From: Candidatus Heimdallarchaeota archaeon
GTDB lineage: Archaea; Asgardarchaeota; Heimdallarchaeia; JABLTI01
Length of the DNA stretch: 64,000 nt
Assembly: GCA_018238155.1 (NCBI GenBank)
Contig: JABCTZ010000032.1
Location: forward strand, 64,001-128,000
Direction of reading: 5' to 3'
The notes under the pieces were generated by a model. The model had not been told where the DNA came from. It did no database searches and saw nothing but the letters and a program-made list of their open reading frames with translations. Shown piece by piece: positions 8,402 to 12,406 of the stretch; the stretch's first letter is position 1, and every line of letters starts with the position of its first letter. The translations under genes and the position numbers were made by a program.

Positions 8402-10057
8402 ATGAAAACTAGAAAGGATTATATTTCAATTACATATCTAAAACCATTGGACTATAAAGAAAATTATGTTTTTTTACCTAAAAACTATGGTTCAAAAAAG
8501 TACTTTGAACGCAAAGACATTCAAGCAATTAAGAAAGCTGTTTTTGATAATTTGAATTCTATTGATAAAAGAACTAAATTCACAGAACAGATTAAAAATA
8601 GGAAAGTCATAATTAAACCGAATTTAGTTGGAGTTTTTTACAAGCTAGGTTTTAATCCTGAAATTGCACCACAATCAACGGATCCACGTGTAATTGATTC
8701 AGTTATAGAATATTTGAAACAATACACACACAAAATAGTTATTGCAGAATCATCTGGAAGCGGATTTCCAACGAGAACATCATATAGAATCTCCCGGCTA
8801 AAGAAAATAGCTAAGCGCCATCATGTTAAATTAATAAACATTGAAGAACAACCCGTAGTACGCTATTATCTGCCAAAAGCAAGCGCTATGAAGGAAATTT
8901 TAATACCTGAAATTTTTGACGATGTTGTTAAAGGTGATGCATTTTATATAACACTTCCAAAAATGAAAACAAATCTGTACACCGATATATCATTGGGATT
9001 TAAGAATGCCATGGGAATTATTCCATTAAACTTACGACAAAGGGATCATAATCATAATCTTGAGAAGAAGTTAGTGGATATCTTATATCTCATTAAACCT
9101 AATTTAACAATAGTTGATGGAGTAATTGGTGCTGAAGGACAATGCCCAGCTATCGCTGAACCTGTTGATAGCCATGTAATTATTAGTGGAACAAATGTTG
9201 TTGAGACTGATTCTGTTACTTCACAAATGATGGGTTTTGTTCCTGAAGAAGTCAAATTGCTTAAACATGCAAAAAAGCTTGGTTTTGGAAACAAAAATGT
9301 AGAAATCATTGGTAAGAAAAGAGTTATTCCATTTAAAAAAGCAAATCCATCTTTGATGAATGATTCATTCACTGAAAAATTTCCAGAAATTACTGTTCTA
9401 ATAGGACATGAATTGGAAAAATCACCTCAAATATCAACTATAGAATCAGTGACCAACAGCACTATGTGTGAAATGGAACTATCTTGTAGAGGGGGATGTT
9501 TAGTTTGTACAAAAATGGGTCTTGTGATGTTGGTTGCTGAAGAATTTGACAATTATAAAGCAACGATCATTATTGGAAAAGGTGTTAAGATAAATGGCAA
9601 AGGCCCTTACTATTTCGATAGAAATGGTAAACCATTTACCGCAAAAGATATTGGTAAAATAAATGGACCAAAATTAGCTGTAGGAGATTGTTCTGTTCAC
9701 CTTAGAGATATATGTGAACACTATATTCCTGGTTGCTTATTTCATGCAGGTTTAGTACATGTTATGTTGCATAAAATCTCCAAAACTAAATGCCGAATGA
9801 CTTCATCAAAGAATAAATTCCTTTTACCTTTTATTGGAGATACCTTAAAAATGAGAATTGCTAGACGGCAACAGATAAGGAAAGGAAGGTATGTTGATAT
9901 AAGTATGAATGATATTAATACACGAGGTAAACATGAAGCTTTATCTGATTTAGAGAAAAATCGTGATTATATCCGGTGGGATTTCCCTCCAATGGATAGA
10001 AAACTAAAAAGAAAATTAATGAAAGAAGAATGGGAATCACTTCTAATCTTATTCTAG
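8402..10057 (+). CDS. DUF362-family Fe-S protein
   Basis: VIIKPNLV, TDPRV, IAES, LPKMKT, KNAMG, IVDGVIGAEGQCP; Cys-rich C-terminal part (CxxGCxxC, GDC, PGC); start ATG 8402 or TTG 8387. Confidence 0.8.
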   Translation: MKTRKDYISITYLKPLDYKENYVFLPKNYGSKKYFERKDIQAIKKAVFDNLNSIDKRTKFTEQIKNRKVIIKPNLVGVFYKLGFNPEIAPQSTDPRVIDSVIEYLKQYTHKIVIAESSGSGFPTRTSYRISRLKKIAKRHHVKLINIEEQPVVRYYLPKASAMKEILIPEIFDDVVKGDAFYITLPKMKTNLYTDISLGFKNAMGIIPLNLRQRDHNHNLEKKLVDILYLIKPNLTIVDGVIGAEGQCPAIAEPVDSHVIISGTNVVETDSVTSQMMGFVPEEVKLLKHAKKLGFGNKNVEIIGKKRVIPFKKANPSLMNDSFTEKFPEITVLIGHELEKSPQISTIESVTNSTMCEMELSCRGGCLVCTKMGLVMLVAEEFDNYKATIIIGKGVKINGKGPYYFDRNGKPFTAKDIGKINGPKLAVGDCSVHLRDICEHYIPGCLFHAGLVHVMLHKISKTKCRMTSSKNKFLLPFIGDTLKMRIARRQQIRKGRYVDISMNDINTRGKHEALSDLEKNRDYIRWDFPPMDRKLKRKLMKEEWESLLILF

Positions 10058-10227: not shown

Positions 10228-10728
10228 ATGAAACCAATTAATTTATGTTTAATACATGTCGGAAAAAAAGGCTTAGAATTAGTAGGCTCTCATCCAAAAT
10301 CTCTCCCAACGGAAATCATGAACCAAATTCTTCTTAAGAGTATGCCTTTTGGAGCAAAACCGGGAGACTTTTTAACAACCAGTACAGGAAATAATTGTTT
10401 CTCTGGATTTGTTTTTAGAGTACCTTCAAATATTGGTCGAGATAATTTGGCTACAATAATGGCTATTTTTGATTCAGAAGACTATAATCCAAATTCAGTA
10501 AAGAAATTATTCTCTACAATTTTAGAAAAATTGCAAGAGAATGACTTAGTAAAAATGGAAACAATGGTTAATTTATTGCCAGAAATGTACAGAGGGATGA
10601 GCAAAGGATACTTAAAACTAAAAATAAGTTCTGTTGTGACATTAGAGTTTGATTTCAAATCAGAAGACAAGGAAAGAGATCAAACTGAACGCAAAGTCTC
10701 TGATATTAGAAGAGAACTTTGGCGTTAA
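10228..10728 (+). CDS. Longin/uDENN-like protein
   Basis: Beta-beta-alpha start NLCLIHV-GKKG-LELVGSHP...IMNQILLKSMPFG, then three strands and helices, matching the uDENN pattern G-P/L-x5-P...I-x3-(C/S)-x-P-x-G. Confidence 0.5.
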   Translation: MKPINLCLIHVGKKGLELVGSHPKSLPTEIMNQILLKSMPFGAKPGDFLTTSTGNNCFSGFVFRVPSNIGRDNLATIMAIFDSEDYNPNSVKKLFSTILEKLQENDLVKMETMVNLLPEMYRGMSKGYLKLKISSVVTLEFDFKSEDKERDQTERKVSDIRRELWR

Positions 10729-10761
10729 AGAAACTATTAAATGCTAATATGAGGTACTATA

Positions 10762-11292
10762 ATGTCTTTTATTTTATCTTTATTTAAAAAAACTCGGAAA
10801 GTGAATATTACTATAGCAGGTTTAGATAATGCTGGAAAAACTGCTTTTATTAATTATCTACTAAGTGGCACATTTGAGAGTACAATGCCAACAGCAGGAG
10901 TAAATCGTGAAACAATTAATCTACCAAAACTACAAATAAATGTTTTTGATTTAGGTGGACAAGAAAAATTCAGAGTTATGTGGCCCCAAATTAATGAAAA
11001 ATCCAATGGGTTGATTTATGTAATCGATAGTACAGACCATGAACGATACGAAAAGACATTGGAAATTCTTTACGATATTCTCAAAAGACAAGTTAATGAT
11101 TTAATTCCAGTTCTCGTACTTTTACATAAACACGATTTGCCTAACAAGATTGAAATGGAGAAATTCTTAGTTCAAACTGAACTGACAGATTACAATATTA
11201 AATGGGCTTGTTTTGAGACATCTGCAAAAACGGGGATTGGGATAATGGTGGCTATGCAATGGTTTATTTCTGAATTGGAGGCAAAGAATTAA
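10762..11292 (+). CDS. Arf-family-like small GTPase
   Basis: G1 GLDNAGKT, G2 PTAG, G3 DLGGQ + RxxW, G4 HKHD, G5 TSAK; N-terminal amphipathic segment MSFILSLFKK; SD GAGGT. Confidence 0.95.
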   Translation: MSFILSLFKKTRKVNITIAGLDNAGKTAFINYLLSGTFESTMPTAGVNRETINLPKLQINVFDLGGQEKFRVMWPQINEKSNGLIYVIDSTDHERYEKTLEILYDILKRQVNDLIPVLVLLHKHDLPNKIEMEKFLVQTELTDYNIKWACFETSAKTGIGIMVAMQWFISELEAKN

Positions 11293-12206
11293 TGAATAGT
11301 TTTACAACATACTTTCTAATCATTGGAACACTGAGTTCATTAACTTGCGTTATTTTTTCAAGTTTTATTCTACGAAGTTTCTTTAGAAAAAGAACCATGG
11401 GTTCTTTGTTATTAAGTATAACATTTTTATCAACAACCATTGCTGAAATTTTGCTTTGTTCAAGTTTCTATATAGAGACATTTATTAAAGGGTCAAATAT
11501 TGTAAAAATAACCGAATTTCTAACATTTACATGTTATTTATTCTTTGCTTTTAATATCGTTTTCCTTTATGTGTTCGGTAATAGATTATTACTTCATGAT
11601 AATGATATTGTACGATTATTGTTTGTTTTAGGTTTTACTTTTCTAACAGCATTCTCAGCTGGCCTTGTTTACAAGAACATTTTTTCATTGGGAAATCCAG
11701 ATTTGTACACAAAAATTTTACTTGTAGCTCCTCAACTATCAATGATTTTTCCTGAAAGATCATTTATAATTTTAGCAATATTGACTCCACTTGGAGTTAC
11801 ACCTGCTATAAGAATAATTATTGAAGCGATAAAAATTCAACGTGGAACAAAAGATCCAATCGCTAAGAAAGGGTTCCAATTCATTTGGCAAGGAACACTT
11901 TTCTGGTATCTTGGTTATAGTGCTACGTTTGGAATGTTATGGTTTGTAGAATTTATTTCAACTAATCCCATTCTAGTAACTGGGATTTTTACTTTCAAAT
12001 TTATTTTCTCAAATATCATTGGGTTTGCGTTGCTCTATTTAGGTTGGGTTATGCCTGATAGGTTCAAAAGACGATTCAGGAAGAAAGCATGGATTGTTCA
12101 AGTCCAAAATGGAGATATTGTCGCTGATCAAGAAGCATCAGCTGGAGTGTATATTCACAAAAACAATCCACAGAAACCTCAATTTGTAGAAATCACAAAT
12201 GAATAG
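11292..12206 (+). CDS. Seven-TM membrane protein
   Basis: About seven hydrophobic segments, ending YLGWVMP then basic DRFKRRFRKK; start overlaps the GTPase stop (TAATG). Confidence 0.75.
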   Translation: MNSFTTYFLIIGTLSSLTCVIFSSFILRSFFRKRTMGSLLLSITFLSTTIAEILLCSSFYIETFIKGSNIVKITEFLTFTCYLFFAFNIVFLYVFGNRLLLHDNDIVRLLFVLGFTFLTAFSAGLVYKNIFSLGNPDLYTKILLVAPQLSMIFPERSFIILAILTPLGVTPAIRIIIEAIKIQRGTKDPIAKKGFQFIWQGTLFWYLGYSATFGMLWFVEFISTNPILVTGIFTFKFIFSNIIGFALLYLGWVMPDRFKRRFRKKAWIVQVQNGDIVADQEASAGVYIHKNNPQKPQFVEITNE

Positions 12207-12217
12207 TTAAAATAATT

Positions 12218-12251
12218 GGTAGATTTAATCTGCCTTTTTTTCTTTATTTTT
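12218..12251 (+). terminator. Hairpin terminator of the longin-Arf-7TM operon
   Basis: GGTAGAT-tta-ATCTGCC (one U-G pair) followed by a long T tract. Confidence 0.65.
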
Positions 12252-12332: not shown

Positions 12333-12406
12333 TGGTGCACCGACCGGGATTTGAACCCGGGTTCCTTCCTAGGCAGAGAAGAGTCCTACCACTAGACTAT
12401 CGGTGC
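12333..12406 (-). tRNA. tRNA-Gly(GCC), intronless, CCA encoded
   Basis: GCACCGA TA GTCT AGTGGTA GGAC T CTTCT CTGCCTA GGAAG GAAC CCGGG TTCAAAT CCCGG TCGGTGC A CCA folds into a full cloverleaf. Confidence 0.95.

What the first reader, a model, noticed from the sequence alone, without database searches (positions are those of the whole stretch)
10228..12251. Three-gene operon: uDENN/longin + Arf-like GTPase + 7TM protein (receptor-GEF-G-protein-like module)
Seen: co-oriented genes with a 33 bp gap and a TAATG stop/start overlap, closed by one hairpin terminator. Gene 1 has a longin/uDENN-like pattern, gene 2 is an Arf-type GTPase, and gene 3 has about seven TMs, a basic segment between TM5 and TM6 and a basic helix after TM7. 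Known: longin/DENN domains regulate small GTPases in eukaryotes, and G-alpha subunits are related to the Arf family. Inference: a membrane-coupled signalling or trafficking unit analogous to GPCR-G protein coupling.
Basis: partly seen in the sequence, partly recalled or inferred. Interest (0 to 1): 0.8.

Follow-up and report, generated by a model that had tools for sequence, protein, structure and literature searches.

The report
Asgard longin, Arf GTPase, 7TM operon
A Heimdall-group Asgard archaeon carries a tight three-gene unit, copied six times in its genome, that joins an NPRL2-like longin regulator, an Arf-type GTP switch and a seven-helix sensor-like membrane protein; this names candidates for the still unknown native partners of archaeal Arf GTPases, but how they work together is not shown.

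Summary
Three co-oriented genes lie at 10228-12206, with a 33-bp gap, a TAATG overlap, and a hairpin plus T-run after the last gene.

- **Gene 2** is a clear Arf-family GTPase (Pfam 1.6e-38).
- **Gene 1** has no Pfam hit but folds as a longin. Its best match is the GAP subunit NPRL2 of GATOR1 (Z 16, 161 of 166 residues), ahead of DENN proteins. It carries a near-invariant Arg71.
- **Gene 3** is modelled with seven helices plus a basic helix 8. It has no sequence family. Its shape fits bacterial HisKA_7TM sensor domains best (TM 0.66), and fits GPCRs and microbial rhodopsins equally and only generically.

The order longin-Arf-7TM recurs in six diverged paralogous copies in this genome and in two related families. 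The three genes co-diverge (r 0.79-0.92).

Distant 7TM relatives across Asgard sit next to other small longin-like proteins that share a C-terminal ...LW end. The longin-7TM pair therefore looks like the older core.

My reading is a membrane-anchored Arf switch with a longin regulator, probably a GAP. GPCR homology and GEF action are unsupported.

This scan reported the same cassette earlier, on other DNA of this genome and in other genomes. I found no published description.

The parts
10228..10728 (+). Gene 1: 166-aa stand-alone longin protein, NPRL2-like, with near-invariant Arg71 in the b4-b5 loop, a G15-L16-E17 turn at the 'GP-motif' position, and a conserved C-terminal ...ELWR end
   Evidence: ORF. 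No Pfam or NCBIfam hit. AF2 model pLDDT 85 with longin topology. Foldseek PDB top hits are NPRL2 at E 3e-7, TM 0.68, rmsd 3.0. VIA Z 16.0 over 161 residues. Atlas matches NPR2/NPR3 clusters at TM 0.72-0.74. Conservation.
10729..10761 (+). 33-bp spacer with an SD-like GAGG about 9 nt before the ATG of gene 2
   Evidence: Sequence, read by eye.
10762..11292 (+). Gene 2: 176-aa Arf-family small GTPase (ArfR/AArf type). It has P-loop GLDNAGKT, switch I TMPTAG, DLGGQ with the catalytic Gln, G4 HKHD (NKxD in many paralogs), TSAK, and a conserved N-terminal MSF[IL]LxLFKK element.
   Evidence: Pfam Arf 1.6e-38, profile positions 5-172 of 174. TIGR00231 5.5e-18. Alignments.
11292..12206 (+). Gene 3: 304-aa seven-helix membrane protein, inferred N-out/C-in, with a b-hairpin between TM4 and TM5, a basic TM5-TM6 loop, a YLGWxMP motif at the TM7 end and a basic helix 8. 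It has no output domain.
   Evidence: ORF. No Pfam hit in any of 44 family members. AF2 pLDDT 88, pTM 0.84. Fold searches. Conservation and charge mapping.
12218..12241 (+). Terminator-like hairpin (7-bp stem, 3-nt loop) followed by T7

Best explanation
The three genes encode one membrane-bound small-GTPase switch module. The 7TM protein is a sensor-like membrane platform, shaped like the 7TM input domains of bacterial histidine kinases but lacking a fused output. Its conserved cytoplasmic face (loops 1-3, the YLGWxMP motif and helix 8) is the docking surface. The NPRL2-like longin binds there, possibly through its conserved C-terminal ...LW tail, and regulates the cognate Arf GTPase. The most likely mode is as a GAP that supplies Arg71 to the Arf active site, as NPRL2 Arg78 does for RagA. 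Arf-GTP would sit at the membrane through its N-terminal MSFLLxLFKK element and recruit unknown effectors. Shown here: gene unit, folds, synteny, co-divergence and face-specific conservation. Inferred: all contacts, the GAP role, and the direction of signalling.
For: (1) Six complete triads in the same order occur in this genome, plus one longin-7TM pair without Arf. All 7 strong 7TM genes lie directly downstream of a longin of this family.
(2) The same triad occurs in other genomes of two families of the class, while flanking genes differ.
(3) The three proteins co-diverge. The distance-matrix correlation is 0.89-0.92 over 19 triads. It is 0.79-0.86 among the six own-genome paralogs, reached by only 1-2 of 720 permutations.
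(4) The longin's best structural matches are NPRL2, at Z 13.6-16.0 with 154-161 of 166 residues aligned. Other longins score lower: 12.5 for a Loki longin, 12.3 for a chain I take to be NPRL3, 10.9-11.4 in the FLCN-FNIP2 complex entries, and 10.4 for DENND1A and DENND10.
(5) Arg71 is kept in 23 of 25 family members and Gly15 in 24 of 25. The three most distant members have G-P or N-P at the GP-motif position. Model range 2-166 aligns to NPRL2 6-173, which places Arg71 near residues 75-78 of NPRL2.
(6) Asgard proteins of 341-347 aa fuse a longin of this shape to an Arf domain (rows 7 and 10).
(7) The Arf keeps the catalytic Gln and has no Arg at the position where G-alpha carries its own finger in switch I, so an Arg supplied in trans is plausible (own knowledge of Arf/ArfGAP).
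(8) In the 7TM family, 25 of the 30 most conserved positions lie on the inferred cytoplasmic side. Mean conservation is 0.56 there against 0.33 outside, permutation p about 1e-4.
(9) Distant 7TM relatives (about 250 aa) in other Asgard families, and at C1:35810-37880 of this genome, lie next to other small longin-like proteins that also end in ...[AS]LW.
(10) Published work states that the native regulators of Asgard Arfs are unknown (PMC11914678) and asks which GTPases partner the GP-motif/Arg-finger Asgard longins (PMC12290439).
Against: No physical contact was shown. The longin has no sequence-level match to NPR2, Folliculin or Longin Pfam families, and the equivalence of Arg71 to NPRL2 Arg78 rests on linear offset, not on a residue-level superposition. 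This family has G-L rather than G-P at the GP-motif position. Eukaryotic longin GAPs act as heterodimers of two longin proteins in large complexes, whereas only one longin is encoded here. Arg71 is also kept in pairs that lack an adjacent Arf (L018-L020, L030), so it may serve another role. Longin domains are more often GEFs or platforms than GAPs. The topology of the 7TM protein is inferred only from the positive-inside rule and an AF2 model. The N-terminal element of the Arf did not score as significantly amphipathic in my hydrophobic-moment test. Related genomes are not independent samples.
Confidence: 0.5

Rival explanations
1. Receptor-G-protein reading. The 7TM protein is a GPCR-like receptor that acts directly as the exchange factor for the Arf GTPase, as GPCRs do for G-alpha. 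The longin is an accessory factor.
For: The protein has seven helices, inferred N-out/C-in topology, a conserved cytoplasmic face, a basic loop 3 and a helix 8. All Foldseek PDB hits are GPCRs and the top VIA hit is a GPCR at Z 14.4. The stop/start overlap couples the Arf and 7TM genes.
Against: Foldseek hits are weak (E about 1e-3, TM 0.4-0.54, rmsd 5-10). Microbial rhodopsins are tied with GPCRs (Z 13.4), and the tool notes that Z up to about 13-14 is common for helical bundles. Bacterial HisKA_7TM sensor domains fit better (TM 0.64-0.66, rmsd 3.6-4.0). There is no GPCR Pfam signature in 44 members. Longin-7TM pairs persist without an Arf gene, and distant 7TM relatives pair with longin-like proteins more often than with GTPases.
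Confidence: 0.12
2. The longin is a GEF or GEF platform for the Arf, like DENN, TRAPP or Mon1-Ccz1 longins, anchored by the 7TM protein.
For: Most characterised longin regulators are GEFs (own knowledge; PMC12290439 says GEF activity is more typical of longins). DENND10 and DENND1A appear among the structural matches (Z 10.4), as does FAM45B/DENND10 (TM 0.68).
Against: GAP-type longins match clearly better (Z 16.0 against 10.4) and over the whole protein. A near-invariant Arg sits in the loop expected for an Arg finger. There are no DENN or dDENN domains.
Confidence: 0.2
3. The 7TM protein is an effector or cargo rather than a sensor or anchor, for example a membrane-shaping or transport protein whose activity or location is set by Arf-GTP.
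For: Arf GTPases act by recruiting effectors at membranes (bioRxiv 10.1101/2024.02.28.582541; PMC11914678). Two conserved basic residues lie within the helices (R174, and K/R at 236).
Against: Few conserved polar residues lie in the membrane core: 3 of the top 30 positions. The nearest shapes are sensor input domains. The outer face diverges strongly between paralogs (22-37% identity overall), as in receptor families.
Confidence: 0.1
4. The genes are neighbours kept by descent without direct functional coupling.
For: All loci come from one class of related, MAG-derived genomes. Most Asgard small GTPases are not in operons with regulators (PMC10933270).
Against: The order is kept across six old paralogs (7TM identity 22-37%) whose flanking genes are unrelated. 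The genes overlap or nearly abut, and they co-diverge.
Confidence: 0.05

Closest known systems
GATOR1 (NPRL2-NPRL3-DEPDC5), GAP for RagA/B, with the GPCR-like lysosomal membrane partner LYCHOS/GPR155
   Same: The longin protein is the best structural match of NPRL2's N-terminal longin region, over its whole length. It has a conserved Arg in the loop where NPRL2 carries Arg78. A small GTPase and a multi-helix membrane partner are part of the same system.
   Different: There is a single 166-aa longin with no C-terminal NPRL2 domain, NPRL3 partner or DEPDC5. The client is an Arf-type, not a Rag-type, GTPase. The three genes form an operon. The 7TM protein has no transporter or DEP domains. There is no sequence similarity. 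The LYCHOS link comes from earlier notes of this scan and my own knowledge and was not tested here.
C9orf72-SMCR8-WDR41 (longin-DENN GAP for Arf), recruited to lysosomes by the 7-helix PQLC2 transporter
   Same: It combines a longin GAP, an Arf-family client and a seven-helix membrane recruiter (own knowledge; the GAP motifs are described in PMC12290439).
   Different: SMCR8/C9orf72 match the longin less well (Z 9.5). PQ-loop proteins have a different 3+1+3 fold, which did not appear among the matches. DENN and WD40 parts are absent.
Asgard ArfR/AArf GTPases (bioRxiv 10.1101/2024.02.28.582541; PMC11914678)
   Same: Gene 2 is an Asgard Arf-family GTPase with Arf-type G motifs and a conserved N-terminal element. 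These are the published proteins whose native regulators are unknown.
   Different: Those papers do not mention gene neighbourhoods, operons or transmembrane partners: a full-text search gave 0 hits for these words. Whether gene 2 belongs to one of their named clades was not tested.
Bacterial HisKA_7TM (PF16927) sensor input domains of histidine kinases and GGDEF/EAL proteins
   Same: These are the best shape matches of the 7TM protein (TM 0.64-0.66, rmsd 3.6-4.0 over about 240-255 residues). One Asgard look-alike cluster is automatically named as such.
   Different: There is no Pfam match at E <= 1 in 44 members. No kinase or cyclase output is fused, and the longest family member is 380 aa. 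Here the presumed output would be separate longin and Arf proteins.
Prokaryotic MglA-MglB and the Asgard LAMTOR1-like/Rab-like/DENN operon (bioRxiv 10.1101/2020.10.19.343400)
   Same: A small GTPase is encoded next to a roadblock/longin-superfamily regulator. That paper also records NPRL2-like longins in Asgard, some fused to two-component signalling domains.
   Different: The GTPase family is different (Arf). The longin is NPRL2-like rather than roadblock. A dedicated 7TM partner is present. The cassette is amplified to six or seven copies per genome.
GPCR-heterotrimeric G protein coupling
   Same: It shares a seven-helix bundle with helix 8 and a conserved cytoplasmic face, and a GTPase of the Arf/G-alpha lineage encoded alongside.
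   Different: There is no sequence signature, and the structural fit is no better than to microbial rhodopsins. No G-beta/gamma is present, and there is no evidence of GEF action.

Membership tests
Arf family GTPase (Pfam PF00025) | Profile match above the curated threshold | tested here: met
   132.3 bits against a cut-off of 22.3, E 1.6e-38, profile positions 5-172 of 174.
Arf family GTPase (Pfam PF00025) | G motifs: GxxxxGKT, switch I Thr, DxxGQ, NKxD, SA | tested here: met
   GLDNAGKT, PT44, DLGGQ67 and TSAK are present. G4 is HKHD in this copy and NKxD in many paralogs.
Arf family GTPase (Pfam PF00025) | N-terminal amphipathic helix that switches with nucleotide | tested here: inconclusive
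   M1, F3, L7 and F8 are invariant and a basic run follows. The hydrophobic moment of residues 2-12 does not exceed shuffles. The interswitch toggle is not testable here.
Longin domain fold | b-b-a-b-b-b-a-a order | tested here: met
   AF2 model: E5-12, E15-22, H28-38, E48-53, E56-65, E73-81, H88-104, H110-126. Many longin structures match at Z 8-16.
Longin domain fold | Sequence match to Pfam Longin, NPR2, NPR3 or Folliculin | tested here: not met
   None of these families is hit at E <= 1 in any of 25 members. The PDB profile search found no longin.
GAP-type longins (NPRL2, FLCN, SMCR8) | Closest structural similarity to the catalytic longin | tested here: met
   NPRL2 scores Z 13.6-16.0 with 154-161 residues aligned. 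It stands above all other longins and above the eukaryotic NPR2/NPR3 atlas clusters at TM 0.72-0.74.
GAP-type longins (NPRL2, FLCN, SMCR8) | Arginine finger at the equivalent position | tested here: inconclusive
   Arg71 is kept in 23 of 25 members, in the b4-b5 loop. The linear offset of the alignment ranges places it near NPRL2 residues 75-78. No residue-level superposition was available.
GAP-type longins (NPRL2, FLCN, SMCR8) | GP motif before or at the start of strand 2 (PMC12290439) | tested here: inconclusive
   Gly15 is kept in 24 of 25 members. Position 16 is L, I or V in 22 members and P only in the three most distant.
GAP-type longins (NPRL2, FLCN, SMCR8) | Stimulates GTP hydrolysis of its client; works as a longin heterodimer | not testable with these tools
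   This needs biochemistry. Only one longin gene is present per cassette.
GPCR superfamily | Seven TM helices, N-out/C-in | tested here: met
   The AF2 model has seven helices. K+R are concentrated in loops 1 and 3 and helix 8. Topology is inferred, not measured.
GPCR superfamily | Sequence signature of a GPCR class (Pfam 7tm families) | tested here: not met
   No family is shared among 44 members; one member has a single chance-level Srsx hit at E 0.56.
GPCR superfamily | Structural similarity specific to GPCRs | tested here: inconclusive
   Z 14.4, rmsd 4.5 over 240 residues for MT1, against Z 13.4 for the rhodopsin KR2. Foldseek TM is 0.4-0.54. HisKA_7TM-type models fit better.
HisKA_7TM (PF16927) | Profile match | tested here: not met
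   No hit at E <= 1.
HisKA_7TM (PF16927) | Shared 7TM shape | tested here: met
   TM 0.64-0.66, rmsd 3.6-4.0, 236-255 residues aligned to HK, GGDEF and EAL sensor N-domains. A feature search names one Asgard cluster accordingly. Shape alone does not prove homology.
Microbial rhodopsin | Conserved retinal-binding Lys in TM7 | tested here: not met
   Position 236 is K here but R in an ortholog and R in the family consensus.

The most novel reading that the evidence does not exclude
The 7TM proteins are archaeal sensors whose conserved cytoplasmic face holds a longin GAP by its C-terminal ...LW tail, and so gates a dedicated Arf switch in response to an outside or membrane cue. This would be a prokaryotic forerunner of the eukaryotic lysosomal axis '7-helix membrane protein - longin GAP - small GTPase' (LYCHOS-GATOR1-Rag, PQLC2-C9orf72/SMCR8-Arf). 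In it the longin-7TM pair is older than the recruitment of Arf.
Probability: 0.2. Interest if true: 0.85.

Novelty: new variant of a known kind. Interest (0 to 1): 0.62.

Why it matters
Asgard Arf GTPases have been shown to behave as membrane-binding switches in yeast and in vitro. Their native GEFs, GAPs, effectors and membrane targets are explicitly unknown (PMC11914678). The partners of the Arg-finger longins of Asgard archaea are an open question (PMC12290439). This cassette supplies matched triplets of candidate partners, six per genome, that can be expressed and assayed directly. If the longin is a GAP tied to a 7TM sensor, the logic of eukaryotic lysosomal nutrient-sensing GTPase modules would predate eukaryotes.

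Tried and rejected
- **Complex prediction.** I ran longin + Arf + 7TM with the 7TM as partner. The verdict was 'no answer': 0.41-0.44 for the complex, 0.00 with the partner replaced, and 0.44 with the Arf replaced by an unrelated protein. It only suggests that a pairwise job (7TM with longin alone) should be run next.
- **Pfam and NCBIfam scans.** Scans of the longin and the 7TM protein, singly and for all family members, gave no informative family.
- **Profile search of PDB sequences with the longin alignment.** It returned only chance-level hits, so no residue-level alignment to NPRL2 was obtained.
- **hhalign of the g1 longin family against the second small-protein family (A7).** Only the C-terminal LW motif aligned, and not significantly (E 0.12). 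Their homology is not shown. Pfam gives A7 members only sub-threshold longin/roadblock hits.
- **Hydrophobic-moment test of the Arf N-terminus.** The value did not exceed shuffles.
- **Rhodopsin reading.** Rejected, because the TM7 Lys is not conserved.
- **DUF362 as part of the unit.** Rejected. It precedes only the orthologs of this copy and none of the other five paralogs.
- **Fused forms of the 7TM protein.** An exhaustive profile search of 1.84 billion representatives gave 63 hits, the longest 380 aa, with no sign of a fused kinase, GTPase or longin.
- **Supplement of PMC12290439.** Its Asgard longin sequences are not held.
- **Literature searches.** Searches for a description of this operon found none in the held library. 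Subscription journals are not covered.
Full report
**What is there.** Three + strand ORFs lie at 10228-10728 (166 aa), 10762-11292 (176 aa) and 11292-12206 (304 aa). They are separated by 33 bp and by a one-base stop/start overlap (TAATG). SD-like GAGG/GGAGG motifs precede genes 2 and 3. A 7-bp hairpin plus T7 follows at 12218-12241. Its folding energy is ordinary (z -1.5). A tRNA-Gly gene follows on the other strand. The window is AT-rich (GC about 0.30-0.36). The nearest database proteins are named 'Candidatus Heimdallarchaeota archaeon'.

**The GTPase.** Gene 2 matches Pfam Arf at 1.6e-38 over profile positions 5-172 of 174. It has GLDNAGKT, switch I PT44, DLGGQ67 and TSAK. Its G4 motif is HKHD where many paralogs have NKxD. 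The N-terminus MSF[IL]LxLFKK is conserved, with M1, F3, L7 and F8 invariant. However, my hydrophobic-moment test did not exceed shuffles. I therefore call it an Arf-type N-terminal element, not a proven amphipathic helix.

**The longin.** Gene 1 has no Pfam or NCBIfam match, alone or across 25 relatives.
- With a 25-row alignment, AF2 gives pLDDT 85 and the longin order b-b-a-b-b-b-a-a, followed by a hairpin and a C-terminal helix.
- Foldseek against the PDB puts NPRL2 of GATOR1 first (E 3e-7, TM 0.68, rmsd 3.0). Then come yeast Npr2, a longer GATOR1 chain that I take to be NPRL3, and a Lokiarchaeal longin. DENN proteins rank lower.
- VIA-align gives NPRL2 Z 13.6-16.0 with 154-161 of 166 residues aligned. 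Other scores are 12.5 (Loki longin), 12.3 (the presumed NPRL3 chain), 10.9-11.4 (chains of the FLCN-FNIP2 complex), 10.4 (DENND10, DENND1A) and 9.5 (the C9orf72-SMCR8 entry).
- Against the ESM Atlas, eukaryotic NPR2/NPR3 clusters match at TM 0.72-0.74. Two Asgard clusters of 341-347 aa that carry Pfam Arf contain a domain of this shape, so longin-Arf fusions exist.
- Arg71 (GRDN, b4-b5 loop) is kept in 23 of 25 relatives, Gly15 in 24 and Pro23 in all. Position 16 is L, I or V except in the three most distant members, which have Pro there (G-P in two, N-P in one).

PMC12290439 defines GAP-type longins by a GP motif at the start of strand 2 and a neighbouring Arg finger. It reports such longins in Heimdallarchaeia and asks whether ArfR or Rag GTPases are their partners. 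The aligned ranges (model 2-166 to NPRL2 6-173) put Arg71 near NPRL2 residues 75-78. That Arg78 is the NPRL2 finger is my own knowledge. I could not make a residue-level superposition.

**The membrane protein.** Gene 3 has no family by sequence in any of 44 relatives. An exhaustive profile search of 1.84 billion representatives found only 63 hits, none longer than 380 aa, so there is no sign of a fused output domain.
- AF2 (44 rows) gives pLDDT 88 and pTM 0.84. The model has seven long helices, a b-hairpin between TM4 and TM5, and a short basic helix after TM7.
- Lys and Arg cluster in loop 1 (RSFFRKRT), loop 3 and helix 8, which indicates N-out/C-in.
- Of the 30 most conserved positions, 25 lie on that inferred cytoplasmic side (0.56 against 0.33 outside, p about 1e-4). 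They include RKRTxG (loop 1), YxFxNRxxLxDN (TM3 end and loop 2), KKGF (loop 3) and YLGWxMPDW (TM7 to helix 8).
- In the PDB all Foldseek hits are GPCRs, but weak ones (E about 1e-3, TM 0.4-0.54).
- VIA-align gives Z 14.4 for a GPCR and 13.4 for the rhodopsin KR2. That is a tie, in a range the tool calls common for helical bundles.
- The Atlas search gives better fits to the 7TM input domains of bacterial histidine kinases and GGDEF/EAL proteins, several carrying PF16927 HisKA_7TM (TM 0.64-0.66, rmsd 3.6-4.0). A feature search finds Asgard clusters, one automatically named as such.
- The TM7 Lys is not conserved, so the protein is not a rhodopsin.

**Linkage of the three genes.**
- Orthologs on other contigs keep DUF362-longin-Arf-7TM while downstream genes differ.
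- The genome holding the window (4.08 Mb, 46 contigs, 90.7% complete) has six complete triads in the same order, on C41 (this one), C10, C29, C15, C39 and C20. C21 has one longin-7TM pair without Arf.
- All seven strong 7TM genes follow a longin of this family. DUF362 accompanies only this copy.
- The paralogs are old. Among the six own-genome paralogs, identity is 22-37% for the 7TM protein, 42-63% for the longin and 47-64% for the Arf.
- Pairwise distances of the three proteins correlate at 0.89-0.92 over 19 triads. Among the six own-genome paralogs they correlate at 0.79-0.86, reached by 1-2 of 720 permutations. The cassette was therefore duplicated and diverged as a unit.
- Across 400 genomes of the phylum, strong matches to the 7TM profile (over 216 bits) occur in 18 genomes of two families of one class. 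Strong longin matches (over 100 bits) occur in the same two families and largely the same genomes. Related genomes are not independent, so I rely mainly on the paralog argument.

**An older core.** Weak but significant 7TM matches (at most about 74 bits, about 250 aa) occur in 156 of 400 Asgard genomes.
- I examined 18 such loci. In eight, a small protein lies directly upstream and co-directional: six of a second family (alignment A7) and two of the gene 1 family, the latter with a further 212-213-aa membrane protein between it and the 7TM gene. In two more loci a small protein of the second family is transcribed divergently.
- Two further loci have an Arf-fusion or a Ras-like GTPase next door.
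- The second small-protein family has only sub-threshold longin/roadblock Pfam hits. Eight of the nine aligned members end in ...[AS][LF]W, like the ...[DE]LW[KR] end of gene 1. hhalign aligns only that motif and not significantly.
- The same arrangement exists in this genome at C1:35810-37880: a 151-aa protein ending ...DALW, followed by two tandem 7TM genes ending YLGYxMP.

I infer that a small longin-like protein with a C-terminal Trp, together with a 7TM protein, is the older pair. A dedicated Arf was inserted in the lineage that holds this window.

**Mechanism.** My best reading (confidence 0.5) has four parts.
- The 7TM protein is a sensor-like membrane platform.
- The longin docks on its conserved cytoplasmic face.
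- The longin regulates the cognate Arf, most likely as an Arg-finger GAP.
- Arf-GTP acts at the same membrane on unknown effectors.

All contacts and activities are inferred. The rivals are a longin GEF (0.2), a GPCR-like GEF role of the 7TM protein (0.12), the 7TM protein as effector or cargo (0.1), and no coupling (0.05).

**Known or new.**
- Asgard Arf GTPases are published (bioRxiv 10.1101/2024.02.28.582541; PMC11914678). In those texts the words neighbour, operon, synteny and transmembrane do not occur. PMC11914678 states that the native regulators remain to be established.
- NPRL2-like longins in Asgard, some fused to two-component domains, and a LAMTOR1-like/Rab-like/DENN operon are reported in bioRxiv 10.1101/2020.10.19.343400.
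- PMC10933270 notes that small GTPases of the Asgard strain MK-D1 are generally not in operons with longin or roadblock genes.
- A 2026 preprint lists Asgard 7TM and GPCR-like structural clusters without context.
- I found no description of this triad in the held library. The library lacks most subscription journals.

This scan has reported the same cassette before, on other contigs of this genome and in other genomes. One earlier follow-up was later marked 'part of it fell; bold reading 23/100'. My results were obtained independently and agree on the facts. I keep the bold reading at about 0.2.

**Verdict.** The cassette is a real, conserved and amplified unit. It is a new variant of the known kind 'small GTPase with a longin/roadblock regulator', made unusual by the dedicated 7TM partner. 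It is worth bench tests. It is not evidence for an archaeal GPCR-G protein system.

Noticed in passing
window 8387-10057 (+): A 556-aa DUF362 protein (Pfam 1.7e-33) lies 170 bp upstream. It is kept upstream of the orthologs of this cassette in L001-L004 but is absent from the five paralogous cassettes, so it is a neighbour and not a member.
   Followed up: partly
G000 C1:35810-37880 (-), same genome, outside the window: A 151-aa protein ending ...DKMKDALW lies directly upstream of two tandem 265/267-aa distant relatives of the 7TM protein (ends YLGYVMP and YLGYAMP). No GTPase gene is present.
   Followed up: partly
L030 (G000 C21:5505-6928), L018, L019, L020: These are variant cassettes with the longin directly followed by the 7TM gene and no Arf gene between them. 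Arg71 is kept in these longins. In L020 the 7TM gene is split into two ORFs.
   Followed up: partly
L054 3016-4907 and L055 3211-5075: A distant longin of this family (with G-P at the GP-motif position) is followed by a 212-213-aa hydrophobic protein without a Pfam family, and then by a distant 7TM relative. Here a second membrane protein occupies the place of the Arf.
   Followed up: no
L048 1944-4366 and L058 952-2546: Distant 7TM relatives lie next to GTPases in other Asgard families. One is a 384-aa protein with a C-terminal Arf domain (Pfam 1e-37), transcribed divergently. The other is a 188-aa Ras-family GTPase (1.5e-32) directly upstream.
   Followed up: no
window 11122-11133 (G4 motif of gene 2) and alignment A6: The first residue of the NKxD guanine-specificity motif is His (HKHD, HKSD, HKYD) in this copy, its orthologs and some paralogs, and Asn in the rest. 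The effect on nucleotide specificity is unknown.
   Followed up: no
G000, whole genome: About 43 ORFs match the Arf profile at E <= 1e-5. At least eight are 312-336-aa proteins in which the GTPase is fused to a further domain (for example C7:131375-132331, C19:58254-59261). This fits the longin-Arf fusion clusters seen in the Atlas search.
   Followed up: no
window 12333-12406 (-): A tRNA-Gly(GCC) gene converges on the end of the cassette.
   Followed up: yes
window 5480-7543 (-) and L004 237-2300: A 687-aa HEAT-repeat protein with a Cys-rich C-terminal end is conserved two to three genes upstream in L004 as well (precomputed Pfam HEAT_2 and DZR).
   Followed up: no
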